Source: Lama guanicoe
Taxonomy: Eukaryota
Assembly: GCA_013239625.1 (NCBI GenBank)
Contig: MU053588.1
Coordinates: forward strand, 1,327,988 to 1,391,987
Direction: 5' to 3'
Length of the DNA: 64,000 nucleotides
The position numbers and the translations under genes were made by a program. Shown one piece after another: positions 54,368 through 56,512 of the stretch. Within the stretch, counting starts at the first letter, position 1. The number at the start of each line of letters is the position of its first letter. Below the pieces are notes generated by a model that saw nothing but the letters and a program-made list of their open reading frames with translations, did not search any database and had not been told where the DNA came from.

Positions 54368-56512
54368 TCAGCCCTCTCTCCTGAGCTCCTCGCCCAGCAT
54401 CTCCGTCGCCTTCTTCAGCTCATCTCTCACATGCTCCAGCCGCTCCACATCATGCTCCTGGTGGGGTCAGAAATGGTGTGCTCAGCACCCACCCTCAAAA
54501 GTGGGCCACCTCAGTGGTCGCCCACAGTGGCAGCCAACTGTGGTCATCCTAGCCATCATGGGCTGCGATGGTGACCATACTGGTTGCCACAAGCCTGAAA
54601 GAGGTCAGCTAACATGACCCATGGTGTCTGCCCCGGCCAACAGCAGCAGACGGAGGACTAGCCAAGGTGCTCAACTTGGATGCCTCCACCCGTTCATGAG
54701 GTGATGGCCACTTTAGTAACTGCCACTGATCACGGTGACATCTTTACTTTCCATGGCCCAGCAATGGTGTCCACCTGTATCCCAATGAACCAGGCACACC
54801 AGCCTCTCTTCACAGTAGCCTCTCTTCACAGTGGCCAACTTGCTGGTTACAGACTAACTCGGACGCTTCTGTGCAGTAACGGGGGCCACCCTGGTCAAGT
54901 AGAGACCCTGCTTAGATGTTGCTGCCTAGTCCTGGTGTCAGTCCTGGTCACAATGACCCATTCGGGGTGGGCCTTGCTGCTTATGGCCCAACACTGGTAG
55001 CTGTTTGGTACTAAGTCCACTGGCATCTGGTCTGCCCCACTCCCCCACTGCCTCCTCCACTCACCTCCCTGTCCCAAGCCTCTTCCTTCTCCTCCTGCTT
55101 GGGCTCAGCTGCTGGCTGGTGGAGATGGTGGTGGTGCGGAGAGTCCTCGTGCCTCTCTCCTCCACCCGCCTCAGCCCCCTGCCACAGGCTGCGGCCCCCG
55201 CCCATCACCTGCAACCCCTTCTCTGCCTCGAACTGAGCTGTCTCCTCATCACTGGTCTGCTCTGCCACTTGCTTCCCGGGACCCCCGCCACCTCCTCGAT
55301 GCTGCTTCCACAGGCCCTCAAAGGTCTCCACAGGCCCCCTCCTCTTCTCCTCCTCCTCCTCCTGGCGGAGCTGGCTGTGGAGCTGCTCGTGGATGGCCTG
55401 TTCGTGCACCTCGGACTTGTGGGTCCTTTCTCCTGCCTCGTCCTCTTCCTCGTCCCTCACCTCCTGGCTGGACCTTGTCTTTGCAGCCTCTCGCTTTTTA
55501 AAATCCCCAACCAGCAGGCCTTTCTCCTCGGCGGGCCCACAGCCGTAGGGCTCTGTCTCACACATTTCTAGTGGAAAGAAAGGATGTTCTCTGTGCAGTC
55601 AATCAGGAAGCAGACCTGGAGAGTTCGGGGCCTGCCCGAGGTCCTACAGGGGGACTGCCCAGAACTGGGAGAGGAGGGCCAGGTGCCAGGAGACAGTCTC
55701 CGTCCCCATCCTGTACCTCTGCAGGGAGCTCCAAGGGTGGGGCTGGGGGGTGCGGGCTCCTTCTCTCTGGACGCACTGGGCAGTGCCGTGCCAGCCCAGA
55801 TGATGGGGCTCCAGGATAAGAGGACACCCCTTCCTCCAGGCAGCCCTGGGCCAAACCCTGGTGGGGTGGCTGCTCCTAGGAGGGGGCCTGGGCCCTCCTT
55901 ACCTTTGTGTAGGAGAGCCATGCAGGGGCCTCGGTTGGCCTGGCCCAACATCAGCACTTCTGTGACCACCTCTGCCAGACAGCGGGTCAGCTGGGGGTGA
56001 AGGGTCAGAGGGGAGGTTGAGGGCAGGGCAGATGGGGAGAATGAGAGCAGCTGGTTTGGAGGAGAGACAAGGATCATGGAGGGGGCTGGGCAGGGAGGGC
56101 CAGGGGCAGGGCCCCAGGGAGATGAGGCTGGGCAAGGGGGCCACATTCCTCACCTCCTCCTTGGAGGGTCTTGGTGCCAGGGGAACTGCGGTGGCTGTGG
56201 AAGAAGGACATGGGTGCTGGGCTCAGACCCCAGGGGCTGTCCCTGGTGCTGACTCCAGCTCCGAGGTCGTCCAGGGACCTGTGGGTACATCCCCTACCCC
56301 AGCCCACTTGCATCGTCTCTACCTGGACACTTGGCCCATGAAGTCTCTAGTCTGACCACGCTGGGTGCACCATCCCTGACCCTGGTCACCCAATTCCCTG
56401 CTCCCCAGGCTGGCTGCTTAAGTCGCCCTGGTTTCTGGCGCTCACCTGCCCTGAGCAGCAGCACTAGCAGGGAAGGCAGCAGCAGCATGGAGGTGGGCCC
56501 GTGGCGCTGCAT
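54368..56512 (-). CDS. CCER2: Coiled-coil glutamate-rich protein 2, 262 aa, predicted secreted. Exons: 56512-56446, 56194-56154, 55990-55903, 55567-55065, 54457-54368
   Basis: The spliced ORF of 789 nt reads [75 protein letters not shown]...Glu-rich...HHHHLHQP...|[29 protein letters not shown]. It lies in the syntenic position between NFKBIB and SARS2. Confidence 0.93.

What the first reader, a model, noticed from the sequence alone, without database searches (positions are those of the whole stretch)
54368..56512. CCER2 looks like an unrecognised third chromogranin (CHGA/CHGB paralogue)
Seen in the sequence: a hydrophobic signal-like N-terminus over exons 1-2; an 88-nt exon 3 encoding [13 protein letters not shown]...-PCMALLHK (Cys-x18-Cys); one large Glu-rich exon; a last exon encoding [29 protein letters not shown]; intron phases 1-0-1-0. 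Recalled knowledge, to be verified: CHGB exon 3 encodes VTRCIIEVLSNAL...PECRQVLK and CHGA has VMKCIVEVISDTL...ECFETL (the Cys-x20-Cys sorting loop). Their C-termini carry the granin helix (CHGA ..ELESLSAIEAELEKVAHQLQALRRG). CHGB has the same 5-exon plan. CHGA lies near RIN3 on human 14q32 and CHGB shares 20p with RIN2, while CCER2 sits near RINL. Inference: CCER2 is a divergent granin ohnologue, a regulated-secretory-granule protein or prohormone rather than a generic coiled-coil protein. I do not know whether this has been published.
Basis: partly seen in the sequence, partly recalled or inferred. Interest (0 to 1): 0.88.

Follow-up and report, generated by a model that had tools for sequence, protein, structure and literature searches.

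The report
CCER2: a hidden third chromogranin gene
The little-studied gene CCER2 is a strongly diverged relative of chromogranins A and B, the proteins that pack hormones into secretory granules, so touch-sensing Merkel cells, inner-ear hair cells and some neuroendocrine tumours may use a granin nobody has tested.

Summary
A five-exon gene on the minus strand (CDS 54368-56512, 262 aa, all introns GT-AG, phases 1-0-1-0) is CCER2.

The granin reading is supported.
- In this same genome, CHGA and CHGB have introns at the same positions and phases. These are inside the signal peptide (phase 1), 3 codons before Cys1 (phase 0), 6 codons plus 1 nt after Cys2 (phase 1), and 27-29 codons before the stop (phase 0).
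- Placental CCER2 alone is only weakly granin-like. None of 28 orthologues hits Pfam Granin. With signal peptides removed, hhalign gives P about 0.01.
- A placental CCER2 profile finds reptile CCER2 proteins in a library of 1.84 billion. Both full-length reptile proteins tested pass Pfam's Granin cut-off (39.9 and 35.9 bits; cut-off 25).
- An amniote CCER2 profile matches CHGA at P 6.5e-10 and CHGB at 1.1e-8, like the CHGB-CHGA control (4.7e-10). SCG2 as negative control gives P 0.23.
- The middle regions of the reptile proteins fit CCER2, not CHGA or CHGB.

Not shown here: a 2R origin (only amniote orthologues were found) and storage in granules.

No held paper links CCER2 to granins. Papers report it as a marker of Merkel cells, hair cells and Merkel cell carcinoma.

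The parts
56609..56616 (-). CRE-like octamer TGACATCA, 104 nt upstream of the ATG. Candidate promoter element only.
   Evidence: Motif scan. In the same genome CHGB has TGACGTCA and CHGA has TTACGTCA upstream of exon 1. Conservation in other species was not tested.
56568..56572 (-). TATAA, 60 nt upstream of the ATG. Candidate TATA box.
   Evidence: Motif only.
56446..56512 (-). Exon 1, coding part. ATG plus 22 codons plus 1 nt. Hydrophobic signal-peptide core. Ends in phase 1.
   Evidence: CHGA and CHGB exon 1 also end in phase 1 inside the signal peptide.
56154..56194 (-). Exon 2, 41 nt. Holds the end of the signal peptide (likely cleavage after A-T-A) and the first mature residues [11 protein letters not shown]. 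Ends in phase 0.
   Evidence: CHGA and CHGB exon 2 are 47 nt each and also run from phase 1 to phase 0. The cleavage site is inferred by the -3/-1 rule; no predictor was run.
55903..55990 (-). Exon 3, 88 nt. The granin-type disulfide-loop exon: LTRC-x18-CMALLHK. It starts 3 codons before Cys1 and ends 6 codons plus 1 nt after Cys2.
   Evidence: Boundaries and phases are identical to CHGA and CHGB exon 3 (94 nt each). Best local match of this exon in full-length CHGB and CHGA is their loop. Column shuffles reach the score in 1 of 2000 and 4 of 2000.
55065..55567 (-). Exon 4, 503 nt. Large acidic variable region. The mature protein has E+D 23.6% and pI 5.05. Ends in phase 0.
55539..55565 (-). 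Second cysteine pair, MCETEPYGC, at the start of exon 4. Absent from marsupial and reptile CCER2.
   Evidence: (the second Cys is invariant in 24 of 24; the first is Y or F in 3 of 24).
55176..55274 (-). The most conserved CCER2-specific block, [33 protein letters not shown]. Shared from reptiles to placentals and absent from CHGA and CHGB.
55125..55136 (-). His run (HHHH).
   Evidence: His-rich in all CCER2 aligned.
54368..54457 (-). Exon 5. 29 codons plus TGA. C-terminal helix [29 protein letters not shown]. Starts in phase 0, like the 27-codon last exons of CHGA and CHGB.
   Evidence: Best local match in full CHGA and CHGB is their C-terminal exon. By sequence alone it is weak: shuffles reach the score in 33 of 2000 and 167 of 2000. 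The amniote profile against CHGA gives P 0.0058, against 0.0069 for the CHGB-CHGA control.
54139..54144 (-). AATAAA on the minus strand, about 225 nt after the stop codon. Candidate poly(A) signal.
   Evidence: Read. Motif only; no RNA evidence.

Best explanation
CCER2 is a small, fast-evolving third member of the chromogranin A/B gene family.

Shown here:
- It has the family's gene plan. Exons 1-2 carry the signal peptide. A separate exon 3 encodes an N-terminal loop closed by two cysteines. One large acidic exon follows. A separate last exon encodes a C-terminal helix. Intron positions and phases match those of CHGB and, where shared, CHGA.
- Its reptile orthologues still carry a full chromogranin-type N-terminus: Cys-x20-Cys followed by a DER-L helix as in CHGA. 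They qualify as Pfam Granin.
- The marsupial protein is intermediate (Cys-x14-Cys).
- Placentals shortened the loop to Cys-x18-Cys, lost the following helix and gained a second cysteine pair.

Inferred:
- The protein enters the ER and forms the loop disulfide.
- In the acidic, Ca2+-rich trans-Golgi it self-associates through its Glu- and His-rich body and C-terminal helix.
- The loop helps sort it into dense-core granules of neuroendocrine and mechanosensory cells (Merkel cells, hair cells, Merkel cell carcinoma). From there it is released and reaches plasma.
- The duplication probably dates to the vertebrate 2R genome duplications.

My odds: homology with CHGA and CHGB about 0.9; granule storage and regulated release about 0.5; 2R origin about 0.55.
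For: 1. Gene structure in one and the same genome.
- Intron 1 is phase 1, 3-4 residues before the likely signal cleavage site.
- Intron 2 is phase 0, exactly 3 codons before Cys1.
- Intron 3 is phase 1, exactly 6 codons plus 1 nt after Cys2.
- The last intron is phase 0, 27 codons (CHGA, CHGB) or 29 codons (CCER2) before the stop.
- Exon 2 is 47, 47 and 41 nt. Exon 3 is 94, 94 and 88 nt.

2. Profile-profile comparison (hhalign).
- Placental CCER2 against CHGB: Prob 75%, P 2.4e-5, with both cysteines aligned.
- Placental CCER2 against CHGA: P 9.8e-5.
- Amniote CCER2 against CHGA: Prob 96.6%, P 6.5e-10. Against CHGB: 95.6%, P 1.1e-8.
- Positive control, CHGB against CHGA: 96.7%, P 4.7e-10.
- Negative control, SCG2: Prob 0.3%, P 0.23-0.24.
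- The second-best alignment of amniote CCER2 with CHGA is C-terminus to C-terminus, P 0.0058. The CHGB-CHGA control gives 0.0069.

3. Bridge sequences.
- The placental profile, searched against 1.84e9 proteins, gave only 43 hits at E<=1e-3.
- These include Rhineura floridana and Carettochelys insculpta proteins that NCBI names CCER2, a Terrapene fragment, and two marsupial CCER2.
- The two full-length reptile proteins hit Pfam Granin at E 3.5e-10 (39.9 bits) and 5.8e-9 (35.9 bits); the cut-off is 25 bits.
- BLASTP of Rhineura CCER2: against CHGA, N-terminus 6e-11 and C-terminus 3e-6; against CHGB 3e-9; against possum CCER2 5e-15; against bear CCER2 4e-7.

4. The reptile proteins are CCER2, not CHGA.
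- A placental CCER2 middle-region HMM scores them +20 to +46 bits and scores CHGA and CHGB -33 to -60.
- CHGA and CHGB middle-region HMMs score them -9 to -36.
- On a tree of 74 columns, all CCER2 separate from CHGA plus CHGB with support 97/92.

5. Placement. The best local match of CCER2 exon 3 and of its last exon inside full-length CHGA and CHGB falls on the homologous exon in 4 of 4 cases. Exon-3 scores are reached by 1 of 2000 and 4 of 2000 column shuffles.

6. Composition is granin-like. E+D is 23.6%, pI 5.05, with 6 dibasic sites. Camel CHGA has 22.7% and pI 4.78; camel CHGB has 21.2% and pI 5.18.

7. Linkage. A RIN-family gene lies 163-177 kb from CHGA. Another lies about 31 kb from CCER2; its VPS9 exon is at window 23188-23325, tblastn E 2.8e-8.

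8. Expression, from passages read in papers.
- Hair-cell-restricted by smFISH (PMC7221106).
- Normal KRT20+ Merkel cells (bioRxiv 10.1101/2025.09.09.675235).
- Marker of Merkel cell carcinoma (PMC9974098, PMC12623243).
- A subpopulation of small cell lung cancer (PMC13481786).
- Measured in plasma (PMC13088631).

9. Precedent for the sorting role. The CgA/CgB loop is encoded by exon 3 and is needed for sorting CgB to granules (PMC2132667, passages).
Against: - Placental CCER2 on its own is a weak match. None of 28 orthologues, and none of the three window exon peptides, hits Pfam Granin even at E<=10.
- The Granin HMM run over this whole genome in six frames found CHGA, CHGB and SCG2 but not the CCER2 locus.
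- With signal peptides trimmed, placental CCER2 against CHGB or CHGA drops to P 0.011 and 0.010, Prob about 4%. Part of the score therefore came from the signal peptides.
- The C-terminal similarity of the placental protein is not significant by itself. Shuffles reach it in 167 of 2000 against CHGB and 33 of 2000 against CHGA. hhalign gives P 0.11-0.13.
- Rhineura CCER2 searched against this genome hits CHGA exon 3 (E 0.0028) and not the window.
- The alternative tree with reptile CCER2 plus CHGA as a clade is only 8.9 lnL worse and is not rejected (p-AU 0.19).
- I could not confirm that the reptiles carry a separate CHGA, nor see the reptile loci. Orthology rests on the middle-region match, the tree and NCBI's names.
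- No bird, amphibian or fish CCER2 came up, so the 2R date is unproven. CHGB is not on a contig with a RIN-like gene here.
- The loop is 18 residues, not 20. Placentals have two extra cysteines that could pair differently.
- The K-R before the conserved central block is K-Q in this window and in several other species. This weakens a prohormone reading.
- Nothing here shows granule localisation or regulated release.
Confidence: 0.82

Rival explanations
1. CCER2 is a granin paralogue, but not a 2R ohnologue. It arose by a later, small-scale duplication of CHGA in a tetrapod or amniote ancestor. It then evolved fast, especially in mammals.
For: - Only amniote orthologues were recovered: placentals, 2 marsupials and 3 reptile proteins among 43 hits.
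- The reptile N-terminus is closer to CHGA than to CHGB. BLASTP gives 6e-11 against 3e-9. It also shares the post-loop DER-L...LL.EL..LA helix that CHGB lacks.
- Its best hit in this genome is CHGA exon 3.
- A clade of reptile CCER2 plus CHGA is not rejected (p-AU 0.19).
- In the protein atlas, the nearest clusters to reptile CCER2 are named Chromogranin-A (score 0.95; a lead only).
Against: - The best tree splits all CCER2 from CHGA plus CHGB with support 97/92.
- CCER2 has the 5-exon plan of CHGB rather than the 8 exons I recall for CHGA.
- Both CHGA and CCER2 sit next to RIN-family genes. This is what block duplication predicts and what a single-gene copy does not.
- The placental-only profile may simply have been too diverged to reach fish or amphibian members.
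Confidence: 0.3
2. CCER2 is homologous to the chromogranins but has left the regulated pathway. It would be a constitutively secreted acidic protein of hair cells and Merkel cells, for example a Ca2+-binding extracellular or signalling protein. It would not be a granule matrix protein or prohormone.
For: - Placentals shortened the loop, lost the vasostatin-like helix and added a new cysteine pair.
- The protein evolves fast: mean column identity is 73% among placentals, and the branches are long.
- The K-R before the central block is not conserved.
- It is detectable in plasma of the general population (PMC13088631).
- Cochlear hair cells are not classic dense-core-granule cells (my own knowledge).
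Against: - The two loop cysteines, the TRC-L-x-EVV-T-E-V-L helix and the C-terminal helix are kept across placentals.
- Expression follows neuroendocrine identity: Merkel cells, Merkel cell carcinoma with CHGA, and a small cell lung cancer subpopulation.
- Its acidity and His content match CHGA and CHGB.
Confidence: 0.3
3. The resemblance is chance or convergence. CCER2 would be an unrelated Glu-rich secreted coiled-coil protein whose termini merely look granin-like.
For: - Placental CCER2 does not hit Pfam Granin (0 of 28).
- Mature-protein hhalign gives only P about 0.01.
- The C-terminal match is within the range of shuffled controls against CHGB (167 of 2000).
Against: - Four intron positions and phases coincide.
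- The best matches fall on the homologous exons in 4 of 4 cases.
- Orthologues pass the Granin cut-off.
- The amniote profile scores as high as the CHGA-CHGB control, while SCG2 fails.
- There is a graded series from reptile to marsupial to placental.
Confidence: 0.04

Closest known systems
Chromogranin A (CHGA)
   Same: - Signal peptide split by a phase-1 intron.
- A separate exon 3 for the disulfide loop, with identical boundaries.
- An acidic, disordered body with pI about 5.
- A separate last exon, starting in phase 0, for a C-terminal helix ending in RR(E)G.
- A RIN-family gene as neighbour.
- Expression in neuroendocrine cells.
- Reptile CCER2 also shares the post-loop DER-L helix.
   Different: - CCER2 is 262 aa, against about 450.
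- It has 5 exons; I recall 8 for CHGA.
- The loop is x18, not x20.
- Placentals have no vasostatin-like helix.
- CHGA middle-region HMMs score CCER2 negatively, so there is no counterpart of the known CHGA-derived peptides.
- It has an extra cysteine pair and a His run.
- It has its own conserved block, [16 protein letters not shown]...SLWQG.
Chromogranin B / secretogranin-1 (CHGB)
   Same: - The same five-exon plan with phases 1-0-1-0.
- Exon 3 opens V/L-T-R-C.
- The pattern of homologous termini with a large variable acidic exon between them. This is the pattern the 1987 comparison of CgB with CgA named in its title (seen in the reference list of PMC2132667).
- A His cluster.
-.
   Different: - CHGB is about 650 aa.
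- The C-termini are less alike: shuffles reach the score in 167 of 2000, and no C-terminal hit appears among the hhalign alternatives.
- No RIN-like gene lies on the CHGB contig here.
Secretogranin II (SCG2), the historical 'chromogranin C'
   Same: An acidic secreted granin, included in Pfam Granin. It is the best match to that model in this genome.
   Different: It has no cysteine loop and a single coding exon. hhalign with CCER2 profiles gives Prob 0.3%. CCER2 is much closer to CHGA and CHGB than SCG2 is.

Membership tests
Chromogranin A/B-type granins | N-terminal signal peptide (secretory protein) | tested here: met
   There is a hydrophobic L-rich core followed by A-T-A, conserved in 24 of 24 orthologues. 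This was read by eye; no signal-peptide predictor was run. The protein is measured in plasma (PMC13088631).
Chromogranin A/B-type granins | N-terminal disulfide loop encoded by its own exon 3 (22 residues in CgA and CgB; PMC2132667) | tested here: met
   Exon 3 has identical boundaries and phases. Both cysteines are invariant in 24 of 24. The loop is 20 residues including the cysteines in placentals, 16 in the possum and 22 in reptile CCER2. The disulfide itself is inferred.
Chromogranin A/B-type granins | Homologous C-terminal domain encoded by the last exon | tested here: inconclusive
   The exon position and phase are the same, with 27, 27 and 29 codons. The best local match lands on the C-terminal exon. 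By sequence, the placental protein is weak (33 of 2000 and 167 of 2000 shuffles; P 0.11). The amniote profile against CHGA gives P 0.0058, equal to the CHGB-CHGA control at 0.0069. The C-terminal consensus I recall from PROSITE is only partly matched; that pattern is recalled, not from a call.
Chromogranin A/B-type granins | Score above Pfam PF01271 gathering cut-off (an operational criterion) | tested here: not met
   None of 28 placental CCER2 and none of the 3 window exon peptides hits it, even at E<=10. The possum protein gives none. Both full-length reptile CCER2 tested pass, at 39.9 and 35.9 bits against a cut-off of 25. Membership is therefore argued through orthologues, not for this protein directly.
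Chromogranin A/B-type granins | Same exon-intron plan as CHGB and CHGA | tested here: met
   Phases are 1-0-1-0 at equivalent positions in all three genes of this genome.
Chromogranin A/B-type granins | Acidic, Glu-rich, disordered body with dibasic sites | tested here: met
   E+D is 23.6%, pI 5.05, with 6 dibasic sites, against 22.7% and 4.78 for CHGA and 21.2% and 5.18 for CHGB. The atlas model of reptile CCER2 has mean pLDDT 0.43.
Chromogranin A/B-type granins | Expression in neuroendocrine or neuronal secretory cells | tested here: met
   Passages read in papers only: Merkel cells, Merkel cell carcinoma, a small cell lung cancer subpopulation, and hair cells.
Chromogranin A/B-type granins | Storage in dense-core granules, regulated release, and aggregation at low pH with Ca2+ | not testable with these tools
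   Needs cell biology and biochemistry.
2R ohnologue set with CHGA and CHGB | Paralogues lie in paralogous blocks with other duplicated families | tested here: inconclusive
   A RIN-like gene lies 163-177 kb from CHGA and about 31 kb from CCER2. None lies on the CHGB contig. Only this one family was tested. The human chromosome positions are recalled, not checked.
2R ohnologue set with CHGA and CHGB | Orthologues present across jawed vertebrates (duplication older than their radiation) | tested here: inconclusive
   Only amniotes appear among the 43 hits of a placental-only profile.

The most novel reading that the evidence does not exclude
CCER2 is the missing third chromogranin left by the vertebrate genome duplications. 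It would be the resident granin of ATOH1-lineage mechanosensory cells (Merkel cells, hair cells) and of the tumours that copy them. On this reading, it is sorted to dense-core granules by its exon-3 loop and helps build those granules. It is also cut to release its ultra-conserved central block ([16 protein letters not shown]...SLWQG) as a new signalling peptide. Plasma CCER2 would then be a lineage-specific counterpart of the CHGA tumour marker for Merkel cell carcinoma.
Probability: 0.25. Interest if true: 0.9.

Novelty: new member of a known kind. Interest (0 to 1): 0.8.

Why it matters
Since the 1980s, chromogranins A and B have been treated as the only two granins that share a homologous N-terminal sorting loop and C-terminus. 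They are central to models of how dense-core granules form, and CHGA is a routine tumour marker.

A third gene of this type would matter in three ways.
- It offers a natural experiment on the sorting loop: x20 in reptiles, x14 in the possum, x18 plus a second cysteine pair in placentals.
- It bears on studies of cells lacking both chromogranins (for example PMC5814729, seen as a search listing and abstract only). A third family member could compensate in some cell types.

It also suggests testing CCER2 as a circulating marker for Merkel cell carcinoma.

Tried and rejected
- Pfam on the window's exon peptides and on 28 placental CCER2 gave no Granin hit at E<=10. Direct family assignment of the placental protein therefore fails.
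- The Granin HMM over the whole genome did not find the CCER2 locus.
- I first took locus L001 for an intronless CHGB copy. It is SCG2.
- RNA support for the splice junctions was not obtained. A run search listed RNA runs holding 21-30% of the sampled words. The exon model rests on sequence and orthologues only, and the unlaid shares are no evidence.
Rhineura CCER2 hit only CHGA exon 3 (E 0.0028). Possum CCER2 hit only the window's exon 4 (E 1.6e-4).
- Notes from earlier stages of this scan returned nothing, whether searched by words, place or sequence.
- The protein atlas gave leads only. Bear CCER2 reaches a Chromogranin-A cluster at 0.88, which is below the tool's 0.9 bar.
- VPS9 and RIN1-like HMMs over the genome did not reach the window's RIN-like gene. 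It showed only in a direct scan (19.9 bits, below the cut-off of 27) and by tblastn with the RIN-like VPS9 exon next to CHGA (E 2.8e-8).
- The review of the extended granin family (PMC3591675) is not held.
- I considered and dropped a homodimer prediction for the C-terminal helix and a fold prediction. The protein is disordered, and neither result would change the homology verdict.
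Full report
WHAT IS THERE

The minus strand of the window between 54368 and 56512 carries a complete five-exon gene.
- Exon 1, 56446-56512: ATG, 22 codons and 1 nt.
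- Exon 2, 56154-56194: 41 nt.
- Exon 3, 55903-55990: 88 nt.
- Exon 4, 55065-55567: 503 nt.
- Exon 5, 54368-54457: 29 codons and TGA.

All four introns are GT..AG, and their phases are 1-0-1-0. The CDS is 789 nt, giving 262 aa.

The exon-4 peptide finds 170 proteins at E<=0.001. Of the 120 listed, every one with a functional name is CCER2 of a placental mammal. The genome itself is camelid-like: its CHGB exon 4 is 96% identical to Camelus dromedarius secretogranin-1.

The neighbours in the window are:
- a RIN-family gene (VPS9 exon at 23188-23325, minus);
- a SIR2-family gene (33824-34159 and 39264-39572, minus);
- an ankyrin-repeat gene (51556-53255, plus) that ends tail-to-tail about 365 nt from the CCER2 stop.

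GENE STRUCTURE AGAINST CHGA AND CHGB IN THE SAME GENOME

A Pfam Granin search of the window's own 2.05-Gb assembly found CHGB (contig C4620), CHGA (C3586) and SCG2. It did not find CCER2. I read the CHGA and CHGB exons from the DNA.

- Exon 1 ends in phase 1 inside the signal peptide in all three genes. It holds 15, 16 and 22 codons plus 1 nt.
- Exon 2 is 47, 47 and 41 nt and ends in phase 0.
- Exon 3 begins exactly three codons before the first cysteine and ends exactly six codons plus 1 nt after the second, in all three. It is 94, 94 and 88 nt. The 6-nt difference is the loop of 20 against 18 residues.
- The last exon begins in phase 0, 27, 27 and 29 codons before the stop.
- CHGB has one large exon between exon 3 and the last exon, as CCER2 does.

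SEQUENCE SIMILARITY, WITH CONTROLS

I aligned 24 placental CCER2 (A2), 30 CHGB (A3) and 30 CHGA (A4).

With full-length alignments (hhalign):
- CCER2 against CHGB gives one hit, N-terminus to N-terminus with both cysteines aligned. Prob 75%, P 2.4e-5.
- CCER2 against CHGA gives Prob 58%, P 9.8e-5.
- The CHGB-CHGA control gives 96.7%, P 4.7e-10 over the same region.
- SCG2, an acidic granin with a signal peptide but no loop, gives Prob 0.3%, P 0.23.

An important caution follows from trimming the signal peptides.
- The placental CCER2 scores fall to P 0.011 and 0.010, still on the loop.
- The control stays at 8.1e-8.
- So placental CCER2 alone is only marginally granin-like. This fits with 0 of 28 orthologues hitting Pfam Granin at E<=10.

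A simple profile Smith-Waterman gives a placement test. The best match of CCER2 exon 3 inside full-length CHGB and CHGA is their loop. The best match of the last exon is their C-terminal exon. That is 4 of 4.

Column shuffles reach the observed score as follows:
- exon 3 against CHGB, 1 of 2000;
- exon 3 against CHGA, 4 of 2000;
- last exon against CHGA, 33 of 2000;
- last exon against CHGB, 167 of 2000.

THE BRIDGE

The A2 profile was searched against 1.84 billion representative proteins. It returned only 43 proteins at E<=1e-3, none longer than 405 aa. I fetched 30 of the 43 and looked up 10.

Besides placental fragments, and ORF calls that read exon 3 through into its introns, they include:
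- Trichosurus CCER2 (278 aa);
- Gracilinanus CCER2 isoform X2;
- a Terrapene fragment;
- two full-length reptile proteins that NCBI names CCER2: Rhineura floridana XP_061452901.1 and Carettochelys insculpta XP_074872485.1.

The reptile proteins begin like a chromogranin, with ..EDEKVTKCITEILADTLSKPSPIPVTSECMKILQEDERVLAMLHHQHLL... This is Cys-x20-Cys followed by the helix that CHGA has after its loop. They end ..ELEKLEEIKQELERATEKLEELKRG.

They pass Pfam Granin at 39.9 and 35.9 bits; the cut-off is 25 (E 3.5e-10 and 5.8e-9).

By BLASTP the Rhineura protein matches:
- CHGA at the N-terminus (6e-11) and the C-terminus (3e-6);
- CHGB at the N-terminus (3e-9);
- possum CCER2 from the loop through the central block (5e-15);
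- bear CCER2 at the central block (4e-7).

The possum protein is intermediate. It has VTRC-x14-C, then EDEQLTSLL...KHHLGPE, which resembles the reptile ..EDERVLAML...KHHLGHE.

An amniote CCER2 alignment (A5, 16 sequences) scores as follows:
- Against CHGA: Prob 96.6%, P 6.5e-10. Against CHGB: 95.6%, P 1.1e-8.
- Without signal peptides: 2.2e-7 and 3.3e-5.
- Its second-best alignment with CHGA is C-terminus to C-terminus, P 0.0058. This is as strong as the CHGB-CHGA control at 0.0069.

ARE THE REPTILE PROTEINS REALLY CCER2?

For:
- An HMM of the placental CCER2 middle region, with the loop and last exon excluded, scores the reptile proteins +37.6, +37.6, +20.4 and +46.2 bits, and the possum +57.2. 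It scores CHGA and CHGB -33 to -60.
- HMMs of the CHGA and CHGB middle regions score the reptile proteins -9 to -36.
- A maximum-likelihood tree of the two terminal domains (39 rows, 74 columns) places all CCER2 on one side of a branch against CHGA plus CHGB, with support 97/92.

Against or unresolved:
- Forcing reptile CCER2 together with CHGA costs only 8.9 lnL and is not rejected (p-AU 0.19).
- The Rhineura protein searched against this genome hits CHGA exon 3 (E 0.0028) and not the window. The possum protein hits the window's exon 4 (E 1.6e-4).
- I could not inspect the reptile loci, nor confirm a separate reptile CHGA. This is the main gap.

ORIGIN

A RIN-family gene (RIN1-like and VPS9 domains) lies 163-177 kb from CHGA on C3586. 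Another lies about 31 kb from CCER2 in the window (tblastn E 2.8e-8). The other RIN-like genes are on C754 and C3434, not on the CHGB contig.

But it is one gene family only, and no CCER2 outside amniotes was seen. I put a 2R origin at about 0.55 and a later duplication from CHGA at about 0.3.

HOW IT PROBABLY WORKS

Shown:
- A secretory leader.
- A conserved two-cysteine loop exon.
- An acidic, His-containing, disordered body. E+D is 23.6%, pI 5.05, with 6 dibasic sites, close to CHGA and CHGB. The atlas model of the reptile protein has pLDDT 0.43.
- A conserved C-terminal helix.

From papers (passages read):
- Ccer2 is restricted to cochlear hair cells by smFISH (PMC7221106).
- It marks normal KRT20+ Merkel cells (bioRxiv 10.1101/2025.09.09.675235).
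- It marks Merkel cell carcinoma alongside ATOH1 and CHGA (PMC9974098, PMC12623243).
- It marks a subpopulation of small cell lung cancer (PMC13481786).
- It is measured in human plasma (PMC13088631).

Inferred, by analogy with CgB: there the loop is needed for sorting to granules (PMC2132667). CCER2 would be sorted through its loop, and through acid- and Ca2+-driven self-association, into dense-core granules, and released on stimulation.

A prohormone role is weaker. The K-R before the most conserved block is K-Q in this window and in several species.

IS IT NEW?

- Of 95 held papers that mention CCER2, none contains a word starting 'granin'.
- Five mention 'chromogranin'. In the three I opened, the CCER2 passages draw no link to granins. 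The other two I saw as listings only.
- No held paper pairs 'chromogranin' with 'ohnolog'.
- Two papers pair 'granin family' with 'whole genome duplication'. The one I opened lists the usual granins without CCER2.
- These searches cover open-access PMC and bioRxiv only. Subscription papers, and database family pages such as InterPro, PANTHER and Ensembl trees, were not visible.
- Because the reptile proteins pass Pfam Granin, automatic annotation may already flag them.
- On what I could see, the placental gene has not been recognised as a granin.

VERDICT

- The paralogy with CHGA and CHGB is supported. It rests mainly on gene structure and on the reptile and marsupial intermediates, not on the placental sequence alone.
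- The 2R dating and the granule function are plausible but untested.
- It is a new member of a known family, and of clear interest to neuroendocrine and mechanosensory cell biology.

Noticed in passing
window 56568-56616 (minus); L013 and L014 upstream of exon 1: The CCER2 proximal promoter has a CRE-like TGACATCA 44 nt upstream of a TATAA. In the same genome CHGB has a perfect TGACGTCA, and CHGA has TTACGTCA 24 nt before TATATAAA. This could be a shared cAMP-response architecture, or a chance one-mismatch octamer.
   Followed up: partly
window 55539-55565 (minus): Placental CCER2 has a second cysteine pair, [10 protein letters not shown], exactly where reptile and marsupial CCER2 (and CHGA) have the post-loop helix. 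The second Cys is invariant in 24 of 24. The first is Y or F in sheep, mole and lemming.
   Followed up: partly
L001 (G000:C55231:3152881-3154650): The best match to Pfam Granin in this genome is a single open frame of 624 aa, which is SCG2. The Pfam model is therefore largely shaped by SCG2. This may be why diverged loop-type granins score poorly against it.
   Followed up: partly
L004, L005, L011, L012 (contigs C7400, C1042, C22825): Two or three near-identical fragments match Granin model positions 431-584, each with an in-frame TGA. They are probably copies of a granin-derived pseudogene or assembly duplicates.
   Followed up: no
P0367 / P0409 (Dipodomys merriami): Two distinct 'CCER2-like' proteins sit on different contigs in one rodent. 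This could be a recent duplication or haplotigs.
   Followed up: no
P0380-P0395: Many library 'proteins' that match only CCER2 exon 3 are open frames that read through from the flanking introns (..LHPQ-LTRC...LLHK-GKEG..). They are ORF-calling artefacts on short contigs, not isoforms or distant relatives.
   Followed up: partly
window 54001-54370: CCER2 and the ankyrin-repeat (NFKBIB-like) gene converge tail-to-tail. Their stop codons are about 365 nt apart. AATAAA lies at 54031-54036 on the plus strand and at 54139-54144 on the minus strand, so the 3' UTRs nearly abut.
   Followed up: no
window 23188-24750 (minus): The RIN-family gene in the window is much more diverged than the other three in this genome. 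It is missed by genome-wide VPS9 and RIN1-like HMM scans, and scores 19.9 bits (cut-off 27) in a direct scan.
   Followed up: partly
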